Origin: the human T2T-CHM13v2.0 reference genome, Homo sapiens | Strand: one strand, 5' to 3' | Assembly: GCF_009914755.1 (NCBI RefSeq) | Contig: NC_060932.1 | DNA length: 64,000 nt | Part shown: one piece after another, positions 11,754 through 38,542 of the stretch | Layout of the letters: every line of letters begins with the position of its first letter | How positions within the stretch are numbered: position 1 is the first letter of the stretch | Program-made: the position numbers and the translations under genes | Notes under the pieces: generated by a model | What the model saw: the letters and a program-made list of their open reading frames with translations, nothing else | Database searches by the model: none | What the model was told of the DNA's origin: nothing

Positions 11754-12405
11754 GTATTACAGTCTTAAAATGAGAAATTGTTAGGCAGTTAATGGTAACC
11801 TTCATTTCTCTCATATTTTACTTCGAAGGTCTCAAACCAATTTCCTGATGTTTTGATATTTTTATGAATCAGATAAGCCCTTTCATGTTTGTAATATTTC
11901 ATAACTGTTGGAATATTGCATGTATCTAAAGAATCTTGTAGAAGTTTAGCAACATTTGATCATTTATTCTAAGGAGGCTTTTGTTTAGAAGTATTAACTT
12001 TAGGTAAATTTCTTACGGACTCTTTCAGCTGTGGGTCATTTTATGAAATATAAGCCAATGTTGATTTATAATAATTTATAGTTCTCTGATAAAAATATAT
12101 CAATAATGTATGCTTTCTGGATATAAATGATCAAAACCATTAGAAAATAGAGGTAAAAATCAATTTTATTTTTTATTTTTTTATTTTTTAATTTTTTTTT
12201 ATTATACTTTAAGTTTTAGGGTACATGTGCACATTGTGCAGGTTAGTTACATATGTATACATGTGCCAAGCTGGTGCACTGCACCCACTAACTCGTCATC
12301 TAGCATTAGGTAAATCTCCCAGTGCTATCCCTCTCCCCTCCCCCCACCCCACAACAGTCCCCAGAGTGTGATATTCCCCTTCCTGTGTCCATGTGATCTC
12401 ATTGT

Positions 12406-15400
12406 TCAGTCCCCACCTATGAGTGAGAATATGCGGTGTTTGGTTTTTTGTTCTTGAGATAGTTTACTGAGAATGATGTTTTCCAATTTCATCCATGTCC
12501 CTACAAAGGACATGAACTCATCATTTTTTATGGCTGCATAGTATTCCATGGTGTATATGTGCCACATTTTCTTAATCCAGTCTATCATTGTTGGACATTT
12601 GGGTTGGTTCCAAGTCTTTGCTGTTGTGAATAATGCCACAGTAAACATACGTGTGCATGTGTCCTTACAGCAATACAATTTATAGTCCTTTGGGTATATA
12701 CCCAGTAATGGGATGGCTGGGTCAAATGGTATTTCCAGTTCTAGATCCCTGAGGAATCGCCACACTGACTTCCACAATGGTTGAACTAGTTTACAGTCCC
12801 ACCAACAGTGTAAAAGTGTTCCTATTTCTCCACATCCTCTCCAGCACCTGTTGTTTCCTGACTTTTTAATGATTGCCACTCTAACTGGTGTGAGATGGTA
12901 TCTCATTGTGGTTTTGATTTGCATTTCTCTGATGGCCAGTGATGGTGAGCATTTTTTCATGTGTTTTTTGGCTGCATAAATGTCTTCTTTTGAGAAGTGT
13001 CTGTTCATGTCCTTTGCCCACTTTTTGATGGGGTTGTTTGTTTTTTTCTTGTAAATTTGTTTGAGTTCATTGTAGATTCTGGATATTAGCCCTTTGTCAG
13101 ATGAGTAGGTTGTGAAAATTTTCTCCCATTTTGTAGGTTGCCTGTACACTCTGATGGTAATTTCTTTTGCTGTGCAGAAGCTCTTTAGTTTAATTAGATC
13201 CCATTTGTCAATTTTGGCTTTTGTTGCCATTGCTTTTGGTGTTGTAGACATGAAGTCCTTGCCCATGCCTATGTCCTGAATGGTAATGCCTAGGTTTTCT
13301 TCTAGGGTTTTTATGGTTTTAGGTCTAACGTTTAAGTCTTTAATCCATCTTGAATTGATTTTTGTATAAGGTGTAAGGAAGGGATCCAGTTTCAGCTTTC
13401 TACATATGGCTAGCCAGTTTTCCCAGCACCATTTATTAAATAGGGAATCCTTTCCCCATTGCTTGTTTTTCTCAGGTTTGTCAAAGATCAGATAGTTGTA
13501 GATATGCGGTGTTATTTCTGAGGGCTCTGTTCTGTTCCATTGATCTATATCTCTGTTTTGGTACCAGTACCATGCTGTTTTGGTTACTGTAGCCTTGTAG
13601 TATAGTTTGAAGTCAGGTAGTGTGATGCCTCCAGCTTTGTTCTTTTGGCTTAGGATTGACTTGGCGATGCGGGCTCTTTTTTGGTTCCGTATGAACTTTA
13701 AAGTAGTTTTTTCCAATTCTGTGAAGAAAGGCATTGGCAGCTTTATGGGGATGGCATTGAATCTGTAAATTACCTTGGGCAGTATGGCCATTTTCATGAT
13801 ATTGATTCTTCCTACCCATGAGCATGGAATGTTCTTCCATTTGTTTGTATCCTCTTTTATTTCCTTGAGCAGTGGTTTGTAGTTCTCCTTGGAGAGGTCC
13901 TTCGCATCCCTTGTAAGTTGGATTCCTAGATATTTTCTTCTCTTTGAAGCAATTGTGAATGGGAGTTCACTCATGATTTGGCTCTCCGTTTGTCTGTTGT
14001 TGGTGTATAAGAATGCTTGTGATTTTTGTACATTGATTTTGTATCCTGAGACTTTGCTGAAGTTGCTTATCAGCTTAAGGAGATTTTGGGCTGAGACAAT
14101 GGGGTTTTCTAGATATACAATCATGTCGTCTGCAAACAGGGACAATTTGACTTCCTCTTTTCCTAATTGAATACCCTTTGTTTCCTTCTCCTGCCTAATT
14201 GCCCTGGCCAGCACTTCCAACACTATGTTGAATAGGAGTGGTGAGAGAGGGCATCCCTGTCTTGTTCCAGTTTTCAAAGGGAATGCTTCCAGTTTTTGCC
14301 CATTCAGTATGATATTGGCTGTGGGTTTGTCATAGATAGCTCTTATTATTTTGAGATATGTCCCATCAATACCTAATTTATTGAGAGTTTTTAGCATGAA
14401 GGGTTGTTGAATTTTGTCAAAGGCTTTTTCTGCATCTCTTGAGATAATCATGTGGTTTTTGGCTTTGGCTCTGTTTATATGCTGGATTACATTTATTGAT
14501 TTGCGTATATTGAACCAGCCTTGCGTCCCAGGGATGAAGCCCACTTGATCATGGTGGATAAGCTTTTTGAAGTGCTGCTGGATTCGTTTTGCCAGTATTT
14601 TATTGAGGATTTTTGCATCAATGTTCATCAAGGATACTGGTCTAAAATTCTCTTTTTTTGTTGTGTCTCTGCCTGGCTTTGGTATCAGAATGATGCTGGC
14701 CTCATAAAATGAGTTAGGGAGGATTCCCTCTTTTTCTCTTGATTGGAATAGTTTCAGAAGGAATGGTACCAGTTCCTCCTTGTACCTCTGGTAGAATTCA
14801 GCTGTGAATCCATCTGGTCCTGGACTCTTTTTGGTTGGTAAGCTATTGATTATTGCCACAATTTCAGCTCCTGTTATTGGTCTATTCAGAGATTCAACTT
14901 CTTCCTGGTTTAGTCTTGGGAGAGTGTATGTGTCGAGGAATTTATCCATTTCTTCTAGATTTTCTAGTTTATTTGCATAGAGGTGTTTGTAGTATTCTCT
15001 GATGGTAGTTTGTATTTCTGTGGGATCGGTGGTGATATCCCCTTTATCATTTTTTATTGCGTCTGTTCGATTCTTCTCTTTTTCTTTATTAGTCTTGCTA
15101 GCGGTCTATCAATCTTGTTGATCCTTTCAAAAAACCAGCTCCTGGATTCATTAATTTTTTGAAGGGTTTTTCGTGTCTCTATTTCCTTCAGTTCTGCTCT
15201 GATTTTAGTTATTTCTTGCTTTCTGCTAGCTTTTGAATGTGTTTGCTCTTGCTTTTCTAGTTCTTTTAATTGTGATGTTAGGGTGTCAATTTTGGATCTT
15301 TCCTGCTTTCTCTTGTGGGCATTTAGTGCTATAAATTTCCCTCTACACACTGCTTTGAATGCGTCCCAGAGATTCTGGTATGTTGTGTCTTTGTTCTCGT

Positions 15401-36632: not shown

Positions 36633-37649
36633 TTACATTTTGGCATGATTTTGCAGCGGCTGGTACCGGTTGTTCCTTTCCATGTTTAGTGCTTCCTTCA
36701 GGAGCTCTTTTAGGGCAGGCCTGGTGGTGACAAAATCTCTCAGCATTTGCTTGTCTGTAAAGTATTTTATTTCTCCTTCACTTATGAAGCTTAGTTTGGC
36801 TGGATATGAAATTCTGGGTTGAAAATTCTTTTCTTTAAGAATGTTGAATATTGGCCCCCACTCTCTTCTGGCTTGTAGGGTTTCTGCTGAGAGATCCGCT
36901 GTTAGTCTGATGGGCTTCCCTTTGAGGGTAACCTGACCTTTCTCTCTGGCTGCCCTTAACATTTTTTCCTTCATTTCAACTTTGGTGAATCTGACAATTA
37001 TGTGTCTTGGAGTTGCTCTTCTCGAGGAGTATCTTTGTGGCATTCCCTGTATTTCCTTAATCTGAACGTTGGCCTGCCTTGCTAGATTGGGGAAGTTCTC
37101 CTGGATAATATCCCGCAGAGTGTTTTCCAACTTGGTTCCATTCTCCCCATCACTTTCAGGTACACCAATCAGACGTAGATTTGGTCTTTTCACATAGTCC
37201 CATATTTCTTGGAGGCTTTGCTCATTTCTTTTTATTCTTTTTTCTCTAAACTTCCCTTCTCGCTTCTTTTCATTCATTTCATCTTCCATCGCTGATACCC
37301 TCTCTTCCAGTTGATCGCATCGGCTCCTGAGGCTTCTGCATTCTTCACGTAGTTCTCGAGCCTTGGTTTTCAGCTCCATCAGCTCCTTTAAGCACTTCTC
37401 TGTATTGGTTATTCTAGTTATACATTCTTCTAAATTTTTTTCAAAGTTTTCAACTTCTTTGCCTTTGGTTTGAATGTCCTCCCGTAGCTGAGAGTAATTT
37501 GATCGTCTGAAGCCTTCTTCTCTCAGCTCGTCAAAGTCATTCTCCATCCAGCTTTGTTCCGTTGCTGGTGAGGAACTGCGTTCCTTTGGAGGAGGAGAGG
37601 CGCTCTGCATTTTAGAGTTTCCAGTTTTTCAGTTCTGTTTTTTCCCCAT
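36633..37649 (-). pseudogene. ORF1: L1 ORF1 of copy B: codon-7 stop, then open for 325 aa from a new ATG at codon 14 (37610)
   Basis: ATG GGG AAA AAA CAG AAC TGA at 37649-37629; ACG>ATG at 37608-37610. REKG, ARR and YPAKLS motifs intact. Confidence 0.95.
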
Positions 37650-38542
37650 CTTTGTGGTTTTATCTACTTTTGGTCTTTGATGATGGTGATGTACAGATGG
37701 GTTTTTGGTGTGGATGTCCTTTCTGTTTGTTAGTTTTCCTTCTAACAGACAGGACCCTCAGCTGCAGGTCTGTTGGAATACCCTGCAGTGTGAGGTGTCA
37801 GTGTGCCCCTGCTGCGGGGTGCCTCCCAGTTAGGCTGCTTGGGGGTCAGGGGTCAGGGACCCACTTGAGGAGGCAGTCTGCCCGTTCTCAGATCTCCAGC
37901 TGTGTGCTGGGAGAACCACTGCTCTCTTCAAAGCTGTCAGACAGGGACCCTTAAGTCTGCAGAGGTTACTGCTGTCTTTTTGTTTGTCTGTGCCCTGCCC
38001 CCAGAGATGGAGCCTACAGAGGCAGGCAGGCCTCCTTGAGCTGTGGTGGGCTCCACCCAGTTGGAGCTTCCCCGCTGCTTTGTTTACCTAATCAAGCCTG
38101 GGCAATGGCGGGCGCCCCTCCCCCAGCCTCGCTGCCGCCTTGCAGTTTGATCTCAGACTGCTGTGCTAGCAGTCAGCGAGATTCCGTGGGCGTAGGACCC
38201 TCTGAGCCAGGTGTGGGATATAATCTCGTGGTGCGCCGCTTTTTAAGCCGGTCTGAAAAGCGCAATATTCGGGTGGCAGTGACCCGATTTTCCAGGTGCG
38301 TCCGTCACCCCTTTCTTTGACTCGGAAAGGGAACTCCCTGACCCCTTGCGCTTCCCAAGTGAGGCAATGCCTCGCCCTGCTTCGGCTCGCGCATGGTGCG
38401 CGCACCCACTGGCCTGCGCCCACTGTCTGGCACTCCCTAGTGAGAGAAACCTGGTACCTCAGATGGAAATGCAGAAATCACCCGTCTTCTGCGTCGCTCA
38501 CGCTGGGAGCTGTAGACCGGAGCTGTTCCTGTTCAGCCATCT
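37650..38542 (-). promoter_or_regulatory. L1 5'UTR of copy B: sense and antisense promoter region
   Basis: CpG-rich L1 5'UTR; the 5' end begins within the YY1 motif (AAGATGGCTG). Confidence 0.85.
38105..38320 (+). CDS. ORF0: L1 ORF0, intact 71 aa
   Basis: MAGAPPPASLPPCSLISDCCAS...RFSRCVRHPFL*; good Kozak context (gcaATGg); donor-like GT at 38211 and 38296. Confidence 0.8.
   Translation: MAGAPPPASLPPCSLISDCCASSQRDSVGVGPSEPGVGYNLVVRRFLSRSEKRNIRVAVTRFSRCVRHPFL

What the first reader, a model, noticed from the sequence alone, without database searches (positions are those of the whole stretch)
12168..38542. Two independently inserted L1s, 20.3 kb apart, share private mutations including the same ORF1 nonsense codon: local concerted evolution of L1s
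Seen: the copies have different TSDs and different tails, so they are separate insertions and not a segmental duplication. Both carry ATG GGG AAA AAA CAG AAC TGA (ORF1 R7*, at 17289-17291 and 37629-37631). Against the recalled L1PA2/L1HS consensus, both also share ORF1 NYSQ (E>Q), ORF2 HFKK, PGTQG, ISRDAEK, KETKG, KRRKY and terminal GGD, plus silent changes (tcttggtg, gagtcta, ggccagcac, ctccgtt). Established: L1 proteins act with cis-preference, so an ORF1-null lineage should not have produced both copies. Inference: mutations arising after insertion were copied between the neighbours by ectopic gene conversion, spreading an inactivating allele. Most of the shared non-CpG changes I counted are A/T to G/C (about 10 of 16), suggesting GC-biased conversion.
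Basis: partly seen in the sequence, partly recalled or inferred. Interest (0 to 1): 0.85.

Follow-up and report, generated by a model that had tools for sequence, protein, structure and literature searches.

The report
Gene conversion between two neighbouring L1s
Two separately inserted L1 retrotransposon fossils 20 kb apart in a TUSC3 intron have swapped kilobase-long stretches of sequence, copying a stop codon and other rare mutations from the older copy into the younger one, which is a clear example of a known repair process rarely documented for L1.

Summary
Copy A (12168-18220, minus) and copy B (32466-38543, minus) have different target-site duplications and unrelated flanks. Both carry ORF1 R7* (TGA for the usual AGA). 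That 29-mer occurs 3 times among 1501 genome-wide matches. A and B exclusively share 12 further non-CpG variants absent from 33 other L1s.

Outside two blocks, A groups with an older L1 lineage and B with a younger one. Inside the blocks (at least 1.76 kb and 0.9 kb), B carries old-type alleles plus A's private mutations, and A and B become sisters (SH-aLRT 99). Informative sites cluster (11 runs against 21.9 expected, P=0.0004). Non-CpG divergence is 0.81% in the blocks and 2.59% outside.

Best reading (0.85): old, patchy ectopic gene conversion from A into B. About 0.8% divergence has accumulated since, so the event is millions of years old.

The GC-bias claim is not robust, and "concerted evolution" overstates an episodic exchange.

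In passing: 12 other L1 pairs lying within 300 kb share exclusive rare variants about 8 times more often than 767 distant pairs.

The mechanism is known (Alu, mouse L1), so this is a new member of a known kind.

The parts
12155..12167 (.). Target-site duplication of copy A, 3' side of the element (AAAAATCAATTTT)
   Evidence: the string occurs only at 12155 and 18221 in the window
12168..18220 (-). Copy A: full-length L1 of the older lineage (L1PA3-like by tree position; name not tested against Dfam). Poly-A tail 12168-12214, body 12215-18207. ORF1 16293-17309, ORF2 12406-16229.
   Evidence: Pfam L1 ORF1 domains and RVT_1.
18221..18233 (.). Target-site duplication of copy A, 5' side
32452..32465 (.). 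Target-site duplication of copy B, 3' side (CCTCTGCTTTTTCT)
   Evidence: only two occurrences in the window
32466..38543 (-). Copy B: full-length L1 whose backbone is of the younger lineage (L1PA2-like by tree position; name not tested). Its tail holds a 13-nt non-A insert. ORF1 36633-37649, ORF2 32740-36569.
   Evidence: Pfam L1 ORF1 domains and Exo_endo_phos.
38544..38557 (.). Target-site duplication of copy B, 5' side
17289..17291 (-). ORF1 codon 7 stop (TGA) in A, the inferred origin of the allele
37629..37631 (-). ORF1 codon 7 stop (TGA) in B, the inferred copied allele
15608..17366 (-). Tract 1, donor side in A (minimum extent 1759 bp; outer bounds 15553-17610). Holds shared private variants at 17291, 17150, 16962 and 16071.
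35948..37706 (-). Tract 1, acceptor side in B. B carries old-type alleles (alignment columns 1001, 2256, 2824) and A's private variants. Non-CpG A-B divergence is 0.82%.
13937..14842 (-). Tract 2, donor side in A (minimum 906 bp; outer bounds 13744-15060). Holds 7 shared private variants.
34272..35178 (-). Tract 2, acceptor side in B. Non-CpG A-B divergence is 0.78%. One B-specific exception lies at 34433.
32743..33010 (-). Possible third short patch in B (partner in A at 12409-12676). It has 3 shared rare variants but high overall divergence (3.46%), so it is doubtful.
37950..38543 (-). Unconverted island in B: 5' UTR with younger-type alleles at 7 discriminating columns. Non-CpG divergence from A is 3.3%.
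35396..35893 (-). Unconverted island in B between tracts 1 and 2 (younger-type alleles at columns 2936, 3285, 3383)
33022..34079 (-). Unconverted island in B after tract 2 (younger-type alleles at columns 5110, 5201, 5761)
17016..17018 (-). A-only second ORF1 stop (codon 98, at a CpG). It lies inside tract 1 but is absent from B.
15726..15728 (-). A-only ORF2 stop (codon 168). A also has a 4-bp deletion near 15077. B instead has 1-bp insertions at 35037 and 33621.

Best explanation
Two L1s inserted independently into the same TUSC3 intron, in the same orientation and 20.3 kb apart. Copy A, of an older lineage, came first. Copy B, of a younger lineage, came later. While resident, A picked up private substitutions, among them an A>T change that makes ORF1 codon 7 a stop.

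Later, homologous repair used A as template for B. This was nonallelic (ectopic) gene conversion, the non-crossover outcome of the same pairing that can give LINE-LINE NAHR. It overwrote at least 1.76 kb (end of the 5' UTR, ORF1, start of ORF2) and at least 0.9 kb (the ORF2 reverse-transcriptase region) of B, and possibly a third patch of about 0.3 kb. B's own 5' UTR, middle ORF2, distal ORF2 and 3' end were left in place. B thereby acquired old-type lineage alleles together with A's private mutations, including the stop.

Both copies have since diverged by about 0.8% at non-CpG sites inside the tracts. The event is therefore millions of years old, roughly half of A's residence time.

Shown: independent insertion, the exclusive shared haplotype, the mosaic in B, the tree switch, and the lower divergence inside the tracts. 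Inferred: the direction of transfer, whether there was one event or several, the repair pathway, and the dating.
For: 1. Independent insertions: the TSDs and tails differ and the flanks are unrelated.
2. Rare shared haplotype:
- The R7* 29-mer is found 3 times among 1501 genome-wide matches.
- The chr6 carrier shares none of the other private variants.
- The 71-mer carrying two private ORF2 variants occurs only in A and B.
- Single-variant 25-mers occur 64 and 62 times, but no element other than A and B has both (positions compared by eye).
3. A and B share 12 exclusive non-CpG substitutions. Of 561 pairs, 447 share none, and only two true sister pairs are comparable, with 56 and 10. The count is unchanged with six more copies added.
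4. At 23 columns that separate the older (O) and younger (M) groups:
- A is O at 19.
- B is M at 15 and O at 7.
- Of B's 7 O calls, columns 1001, 2256, 2824 and 3601 lie inside the tracts as mapped in the parts list. Columns 190 and 4944 are isolated A-like sites outside them. Column 5434 is a CpG column.
5. Site order: 44 informative non-CpG sites read MaMMMaaaaaaaaaaaMMMMaaaaaaaaaaaMMaMMMMMaaaMM. That is 11 runs against 21.9 +/- 3.1 under permutation, P=0.0004.
6. Trees:
- In non-tract columns A is basal with the old copies. B sits in a 15-row younger clade (SH-aLRT 94) beside L010 and L018.
- In tract columns A and B are sisters (99) among the old copies. The shared branch is 0.0059 and the end branches are 0.0076 and 0.0049.
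7. Non-CpG divergence between A and B is 21 of 2599 (0.81%) in the tracts against 55 of 2126 (2.59%) in the islands. Fisher P=1.9e-6, with boundaries chosen post hoc.
8. A 3SEQ-like walk with B as child and A as one parent gave p<0.01 in 6 of 8 triplets. All 6 control children were non-significant.
9. The mechanism and its dependence on distance are established for Alu. Passages of PMC6598467 and PMC8230782 cite Aleshin & Zhi 2010.
Against: - The AU test on non-tract columns did not formally reject A and B as one clade (delta lnL 33.9, p-AU 0.066).
- The GENECONV-like longest-identical-run test gave p=0.002 for this pair, which does not survive correction for 561 pairs.
- Two of the 8 3SEQ-like triplets, those using the M-type copies L010 and L014, were not significant (p=0.66 and 0.098).
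- Tract boundaries were chosen after looking at the data.
- The mosaic needs at least 3-5 switches, so either several events or patchy heteroduplex repair must be assumed.
- The A-like part makes up most of B. Which part of B is 'backbone' rests on parsimony, not on a direct test.
- The reference panel is small: 33-39 copies, 13 of them picked by BLAST similarity to A.
- No ape orthologue, second human haplotype or read data could be examined.
Confidence: 0.85

Rival explanations
1. B is a retrotransposed daughter of A, or of an R7*-bearing source shared with A. It would have been mobilised in trans by proteins of an active younger L1 and landed 20 kb away. Several of its segments were later overwritten by younger-type L1s elsewhere.
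For: - Most of B's length is A-like.
- B's private divergence is similar inside the tracts and outside them, so the age of B's insertion and the age of the A-like sequence are not well separated. In tracts T1+T2 B has 11 B-derived changes in 3024 non-CpG columns. Outside them it has 28 B-derived changes. By my own subtraction about 13 of those 28 are lineage-diagnostic, leaving roughly 15.
- Trans-mobilisation of defective L1 RNA is known to occur at low frequency (recalled: Wei et al. 2001).
Against: - It needs three unlikely things together: mobilisation of an ORF1-null RNA against cis preference, landing within 20 kb of the parent (about 1e-5 of the genome), and 4-5 separate conversions from unlinked younger-type donors covering the 5' UTR, two ORF2 segments and the 3' end.
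- B's tail carries no 3' transduction of A's flank.
- No other copy carries the haplotype.
Confidence: 0.06
2. B was chimeric from birth, or was converted through a cDNA. Either reverse-transcriptase template switching occurred between a younger L1 RNA and A's transcript during B's insertion, or recombination occurred between A-derived cDNA and chromosomal B.
For: - cDNA-mediated conversion is documented for yeast Ty and Tf2 (passage of PMC6598467).
- Recombinant full-length L1s exist: 35 of 2,267 loci were called recombinant in a 2026 pangenome preprint (methods passage of PMC13192797).
Against: - An RNA or cDNA route gives no reason for the partner to be the nearest neighbour.
- At least 6-8 switch points would be needed.
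- A's transcript would have had to be packaged with an active element.
Confidence: 0.04
3. Assembly or polishing cross-talk between two similar repeats in T2T-CHM13 created the shared bases.
For: Both copies are 6-kb repeats at 97.7% identity, lying 20 kb apart.
Against: - The shared blocks are not identical. They hold 21 non-CpG differences in 2599 columns, and the longest identical run is 524 bases. An artefact would give clean identity.
- Mis-mapping would not prefer the neighbour over hundreds of equally similar copies elsewhere.
- Reads were not available to check.
Confidence: 0.02
4. Shared descent from a subfamily, or parallel mutation: the shared variants are subfamily markers or coincidences.
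For: - Each single variant recurs elsewhere (64 and 62 genome-wide hits for two of them).
- R7* arose independently in a chr6 copy.
Against: - The combination is unique to A and B.
- Distant pairs share on average 0.3-0.4 exclusive non-CpG variants, against 12 here.
- A and B differ at about 15 lineage-diagnostic sites, so a single tree cannot hold both kinds of site.
Confidence: 0.01

Closest known systems
Nonallelic gene conversion between neighbouring Alu elements (Aleshin & Zhi 2010; Kass et al. 1995; reviewed in PMC6598467 and PMC8230782, passages read)
   Same: - Independently inserted retrotransposon copies exchange sequence.
- Rare non-diagnostic mutations are shared by neighbours.
- Subfamily-mosaic elements result.
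- An old inactive copy can overwrite a younger one. The Alu review reports 12 such cases.
   Different: - Here the elements are 6-kb L1s and the tracts are about 1-2 kb, not 300-bp Alus.
- The partners are 20 kb apart, beyond the ~10 kb range quoted for Alu.
- The cargo includes a premature stop in a retrotransposon gene.
L1 gene conversion in mouse and human (Burton et al. 1991, seen only as a reference-list entry in PMC5640379; Myers 2002, Vincent 2003 and Tremblay 2000 recalled, not read)
   Same: L1 sequences at a fixed locus are replaced by sequence of another L1 through homologous repair.
   Different: As I recall them, those cases concern replacement of a pre-existing element by a young active-family sequence, or reporter assays. 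They do not concern an identified neighbouring donor with its private mutations. I could not read those papers.
LINE-LINE nonallelic homologous recombination (Startek et al. 2015, PMC4344489; abstract and passages read)
   Same: The substrate is the same: directly oriented L1 pairs longer than 4 kb with more than 95% identity on one chromosome. A and B qualify, at 6 kb, 97.7% identity and 20 kb apart.
   Different: NAHR is the crossover outcome and gives deletion or duplication. Here the 20-kb spacer is intact and only sequence was transferred. That paper does not mention gene conversion (0 occurrences).
Recombinant full-length L1s in human pangenome assemblies (bioRxiv 2026, PMC13192797; passages read)
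   Same: These are mosaic L1 loci detected by 3SEQ and BOOTSCAN-type tests, 35 of 2,267 loci.
   Different: In the passages I read, that study removed the recombinants as a nuisance. Those passages did not tie donors to neighbouring copies. I did not read the whole text or its supplements.

Membership tests
Full-length primate L1 (LINE-1) insertion | 5' UTR, ORF1 (trimerisation, RBD-like and dsRBD-like domains), ORF2 (endonuclease and reverse transcriptase), 3' UTR, poly-A tail, flanking target-site duplication | tested here: met
   - Pfam hits: Tnp_22_trimer, Transposase_22 and Tnp_22_dsRBD in both copies, Exo_endo_phos in B, RVT_1 in A.
- TSDs and tails.
- 96-97% identity over 5993 bases to many genomic L1s.
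Nonallelic (ectopic) gene conversion | The partners are paralogous sequences at distinct loci that were not co-duplicated | tested here: met
   The TSDs differ. The flanks share only short dispersed-repeat hits.
Nonallelic (ectopic) gene conversion | Mosaic or phylogenetic incongruence: segments where the pair are sisters alternate with segments where each groups with its own lineage | tested here: met
   - Trees.
- Discriminating columns.
- Runs test P=0.0004.
- Divergence 0.81% against 2.59%.
- Weaker tests: AU p=0.066; GENECONV-like p=0.002 uncorrected.
Nonallelic (ectopic) gene conversion | Transferred variants are private to the pair, so a specific donor rather than a subfamily is involved | tested here: met
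Nonallelic (ectopic) gene conversion | The pre-conversion state of the acceptor is seen in an outgroup orthologue or another haplotype | not testable with these tools
   No ape genomes, other human assemblies or reads were available.
GC-biased gene conversion | Excess of W>S over S>W among transferred variants relative to the mutational background | tested here: inconclusive
   - 9 W>S against 1 S>W among the 13 exclusive non-CpG variants. The background W>S fraction is 0.458, binomial P=0.005. Against A's and B's own singletons Fisher P=0.07.
- A and B also share 7 CpG transitions (S>W) against 2.95 expected, which removes most of the bias.
- A-only variants inside the tracts are not enriched for S>W: 6 S>W against 10 W>S.
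Segmental duplication | Homology continues into the flanks, and the insertion site and TSD are shared | tested here: not met
Small L1 subfamily or source lineage (shared descent) | The same joint haplotype is present in unlinked copies, and the two copies are sisters along the whole element | tested here: not met
   The joint 71-mer occurs only in A and B. The chr6 R7* copy lacks the other variants. A and B are not sisters outside the tracts.
L1PA3 (copy A) and L1PA2 (copy B) subfamily names | Match to the curated Dfam or RepeatMasker subfamily consensus and its diagnostic positions | not testable with these tools
   No Dfam or RepeatMasker was on hand. The names are inferred from tree position and branch lengths and from recalled ages. 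Both copies lack the ~120 extra 5' UTR bases seen in the three oldest panel copies.

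The most novel reading that the evidence does not exclude
Exchange between neighbouring full-length L1s is not a one-off but a general, distance-dependent process reaching 50-250 kb. That is far beyond the ~10 kb reported for Alu.

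In my small sample, 12 other L1 pairs within 300 kb share on average 2.33 exclusive rare non-CpG variants, against 0.30 for 767 distant pairs. Of three pairs fetched afterwards as a test, two reached 2 or more (4 and 2), against 3.7% of distant pairs.

If general, local conversion would:
- blur L1 subfamily assignment and age estimates;
- create false 'shared source' signals;
- spread inactivating alleles between neighbours, and in principle intact ones too;
- keep long identity tracts alive as NAHR substrates.
Probability: 0.45. Interest if true: 0.6.

Novelty: new member of a known kind. Interest (0 to 1): 0.45.

Why it matters
It is a clean, internally controlled case showing that fossil L1s do not always evolve independently after insertion. 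A neighbour 20 kb away rewrote about half of a younger element and passed on a stop codon.

That matters in three ways:
- L1 is used as a neutral clock and for source-element tracing. Shared private mutations are usually read as shared parentage.
- Subfamily calls of mosaic copies can mislead.
- Directly oriented L1 pairs that mediate NAHR deletions and duplications can have their identity tracts renewed by conversion.

For this locus nothing functional is expected. Both copies were already dead fossils in a TUSC3 intron. The neighbour effect seen in passing suggests a simple genome-wide test worth running.

Tried and rejected
- 3' transduction lead. B's tail holds a 13-nt non-A insert. Its 19-mer has one other genomic match (chr12:9919676), but no L1 lies beside it, so it does not identify B's source.
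- Close pairs sharing the I599R variant. The 25-mer hits include close pairs on chr12 and chr9. The chr12 pair are old, rearranged L1s (87-88% identity to A, 91% to each other). The chr9 pair are of different ages (92% identity to each other). Neither is a comparable case.
- GENECONV-like longest-run test: p=0.002 for A and B, not significant after correction for 561 pairs, because the event is old.
- AU test on non-tract columns: p=0.066. The second AU test (p=5e-6) is confounded, because the 15-row clade is broken by other rows in the tract tree.
- 3SEQ-like walk: not significant with L010 (0.66) or L014 (0.098) as second parent.
- Transfer from B to A. Alignment column 2182, where A carries the 'younger' allele, turned out to be polymorphic among old copies (22 of 34 rows carry it), so it is no evidence for transfer in that direction.
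- The 4-bp ORF2 deletion in A looked diagnostic, with 14 carriers. It is a recurrent slip in an A/GA run, and the BLAST-chosen rows were biased towards it.
- A TUSC3 / L1-mediated deletion literature search gave nothing relevant.

Full report
**What is there**

The window holds two full-length L1 elements on the minus strand.
- Copy A occupies 12168-18220. Its 13-bp target-site duplication AAAAATCAATTTT lies at 12155-12167 and 18221-18233.
- Copy B occupies 32466-38543. Its 14-bp duplication CCTCTGCTTTTTCT lies at 32452-32465 and 38544-38557.
- Each duplication string occurs only twice in the window.
- The poly-A tails differ, and B's tail holds a 13-nt non-A insert.
- Three kb of flank on each side share only ~280-300-bp matches at 71-81% identity in mixed orientation, most likely dispersed repeats.

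These are separate insertions, not a segmental duplication. Pfam finds the three L1 ORF1 domains in both copies, the endonuclease domain in B and RVT_1 in A.

The two bodies align over 6006 columns with 137 mismatches and 6 indel events, which is 97.7% identity. The differences are very unevenly spread.

**The observation**

The string ATGGGGAAAAAACAGAACTGA is present in both copies and places a stop at ORF1 codon 7.
- In the whole assembly the 29-mer with T at that position occurs 3 times: in A, in B and in one chr6 copy.
- With any base there it occurs 1501 times, and all 100 listed matches read AGA.
- The change is therefore an A>T transversion, not a CpG transition, and two of its three carriers lie 20 kb apart.

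Other disruptions are not shared.
- A has a second ORF1 stop (codon 98), an ORF2 stop (codon 168) and a 4-bp deletion.
- B has two 1-bp insertions in ORF2.

**Reference panel**

No Dfam consensus was on hand, so I built a panel from the same genome.
- 20 unselected copies: the first 20 of the 100 listed chr1 matches (fetched).
- The chr6 R7* copy and 13 copies from the BLAST list (fetched).
- These were aligned with A and B into 36 rows and 6259 columns.
- Rows L008 (rearranged) and L002 (5'-truncated) were dropped from the trees and pair counts.
- The 13 BLAST-chosen rows are biased towards A's indel state.

B is A's best match, but only narrowly: 136 mismatches against 159-164 for the next three.

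**Shared private variants**
- A and B agree against the panel majority at 32 columns.
- At 13 of these, all non-CpG, none of the 33 other copies has the allele. The exception is R7*, which the chr6 copy has. The chr6 copy has none of the other twelve.
- Counting substitutions held by exactly two rows, A and B share 12. Of 561 pairs, 447 share none, 84 share one, and only L004/L016 (56) and L015/L024 (10) are comparable. Both of those are sisters in every partition.
- Genome-wide, the single-variant 25-mers for I599R and for a silent ORF2 change occur 64 and 62 times. No element but A and B appears in both lists (compared by eye).
- The 71-mer carrying I555F and M570T together occurs only in A and B.

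The haplotype is not a subfamily.

**The two copies belong to different lineages**

At columns where both alleles are common in the panel, A consistently carries the allele of the older copies, including the three with a longer 5' UTR. B carries the derived allele of the younger copies.

Using eight older (O) and eight younger (M) panel copies, 23 columns discriminate the groups.
- A is O at 19, M at 2 and other at 2.
- B is M at 15, O at 7 and other at 1.
- Of B's O calls, columns 1001, 2256, 2824 and 3601 fall in the same stretches as the shared private variants. Columns 190 and 4944 are isolated A-like sites, and column 5434 is a CpG column.

Written along the element, 44 informative non-CpG sites read MaMMMaaaaaaaaaaaMMMMaaaaaaaaaaaMMaMMMMMaaaMM. 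Here 'a' means B agrees with A against the M majority, and 'M' means B agrees with the M majority against a non-singleton allele of A. That is 11 runs against 21.9 +/- 3.1 under permutation, P=0.0004.

**Trees**
- On the non-tract columns A sits at the base with the old copies. B sits inside a 15-row younger clade (SH-aLRT 94) beside L010 and L018.
- On the tract columns A and B are sisters (99) among the old copies. The shared branch is 0.0059 and the end branches are 0.0076 and 0.0049.
- B's tract sequence is therefore old-type sequence carrying A's private changes, so the direction is A into B.

**Tract map and dating**

| Tract | In A | In B | Minimum length | Outer bounds in A |
|---|---|---|---|---|
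| 1 | 15608-17366 | 35948-37706 | 1759 bp | 15553-17610 |
| 2 | 13937-14842 | 34272-35178 | 906 bp | 13744-15060 |
| 3 (possible) | 12409-12676 | 32743-33010 | 268 bp | not resolved |

The third patch is doubtful, because overall divergence there is high (3.46%).

Non-CpG divergence between A and B:
- 21 of 2599 (0.81%) in tracts 1 and 2 together. The two tracts are alike, at 0.82% and 0.78%.
- 55 of 2126 (2.59%) in the unconverted islands. Fisher P=1.9e-6, with boundaries chosen after seeing the data.

The eleven shared private variants in the tracts (0.42%) roughly equal the changes A has gained there since (12, or 0.46%). The exchange therefore happened about half-way through A's residence. 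At a recalled neutral rate of 0.5-1 x 10^-9 per site per year this is some 4-8 million years ago. The longest identical run is 524 bases.

**Results that are weaker or against**
- The AU test did not reject A and B as one clade on the non-tract columns (delta lnL 33.9, p=0.066).
- A GENECONV-like longest-run test gave p=0.002 for the pair, which is not significant over 561 pairs.
- In a 3SEQ-like walk, 6 of 8 triplets gave p<0.01, but those with L010 (0.66) and L014 (0.098) did not. All 6 control children were non-significant.
- The mosaic needs several switches, so either several events or patchy repair of one long heteroduplex has to be assumed.

**GC bias**
- Among the 13 exclusive variants, 9 are W>S and 1 is S>W. 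The background W>S fraction among 1075 W>S or S>W panel singletons is 0.458, giving a binomial P of 0.005. Against A's and B's own singletons, Fisher P=0.07.
- A and B also share 7 CpG transitions, all S>W. The mean for 64 old-by-young pairs is 2.95, and 1 of the 64 reaches 7. Six of the seven lie within columns 1001-2824 and 3601-4944, the wider extents used.
- A-only changes in the tracts are not enriched for S>W: 6 against 10.

The bias is suggestive at best.

**Rivals**
- B as a trans-mobilised daughter of A that was later patched by younger L1s. This needs mobilisation against cis preference (recalled: Wei et al. 2001), a landing within 20 kb of the parent, and 4-5 conversions from unlinked donors.
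- A chimeric insertion or cDNA-mediated exchange. This gives no reason for the partner to be the neighbour.
- An assembly artefact. This would give clean identity and would not favour the neighbour.
- A subfamily or chance. This is excluded by the counts above.

**Known work**
- Passages of PMC6598467 and PMC8230782 say that TE gene conversion has been studied mostly in Alu. It is elevated within about 10 kb (Aleshin & Zhi 2010), and old Alus can overwrite young ones.
- Burton et al. [quoted passage not shown]
- Startek et al. 2015 (PMC4344489; abstract and passages) list 17,005 directly oriented L1 pairs as NAHR substrates and do not mention conversion.
- A 2026 preprint (PMC13192797; passages) flagged 35 of 2,267 full-length L1 loci as recombinant and set them aside.
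- My searches found no paper in the held library describing kilobase-scale conversion between identified neighbouring human L1s. Subscription papers I recall (Myers 2002, Vincent 2003, Tremblay 2000) are not in it, and no supplements were read.

**Seen in passing: a neighbour effect**
- In the first panel, the 10 pairs lying within 300 kb share 12, 1, 4, 5, 5, 2, 1, 2, 0 and 3 exclusive non-CpG variants. The mean for the 551 other pairs is 0.37.
- Three L1s at chr1:58.0-58.26 Mb share patches pairwise, one of them four variants within 51 bp.
- I then fetched three more neighbour pairs as a test. Their counts were 0 (one partner is half-length and inverted), 4 and 2. Only 3.7% of 767 distant pairs reach 2. 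Mann-Whitney P=0.0035 for these three pairs, and about 1e-11 for all 12 pairs without A and B. The pairs are not independent.
- The flanks of seven of these pairs show no homology.

This hints that local exchange among L1s is general and reaches 50-250 kb, but the sample is small.

**Verdict**

It is an unusually clear L1 instance of a known process, old and without expected function at this locus. The wider neighbour effect is the part worth following.

Noticed in passing
L009, L010, L032 (chr1:58.0-58.26 Mb); L042/L043; L044/L045; L012/L013; L018/L019: L1 pairs within 300 kb share exclusive rare non-CpG variants far more often than distant pairs. The mean is 2.33 for 12 pairs (A and B left out) against 0.30 for 767 pairs. 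L009 and L032 share four variants within 51 bp. None of the seven pairs checked has flank homology. This suggests that local L1-L1 conversion is general.
   Followed up: partly
L021 (chr6:77287699 region): This is the third genomic carrier of the ORF1 codon-7 stop. It is an old-type L1 that shares none of the other 12 A/B variants, so the same A>T change arose independently.
   Followed up: yes
window ~15077 (copy A) and panel rows: A 4-bp deletion in an A-run/GAGA stretch of ORF2 recurs in copies of different lineages, so it is a slippage hot spot. It is over-represented among the rows chosen by BLAST with A: 12 of 13, against 1 of 19 unselected rows. This warns about panels picked by similarity.
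   Followed up: partly
window 32466-32500 (tail of copy B): The poly-A tail is interrupted by a 13-nt non-A insert followed by a second A-run. This may be a very short 3' transduction or a mutated tail. Its only other genomic match has no L1 beside it.
   Followed up: yes
window 17976-18563: The RefSeq 'enhancer' feature in the hub's table overlaps the 5' UTR of copy A and its upstream flank. No such feature is listed over B's 5' UTR, which is of the younger type.
   Followed up: no
L041 (chr1:173985576-173992076): This is an L1 with an internal inversion. One segment matches A at 894-3980 on one strand and a second matches 3988-5085 on the other, as expected from twin priming.
   Followed up: no
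genome-wide hits (chr18:29725-191696; chr2:97.68/97.74 Mb; chrX:63.59/63.65 Mb): The rare silent ORF2 variant also appears in regularly spaced or close groups elsewhere, for example four hits 54 kb apart at the start of chr18. These are probably tandem segmental duplications carrying an L1.
   Followed up: no
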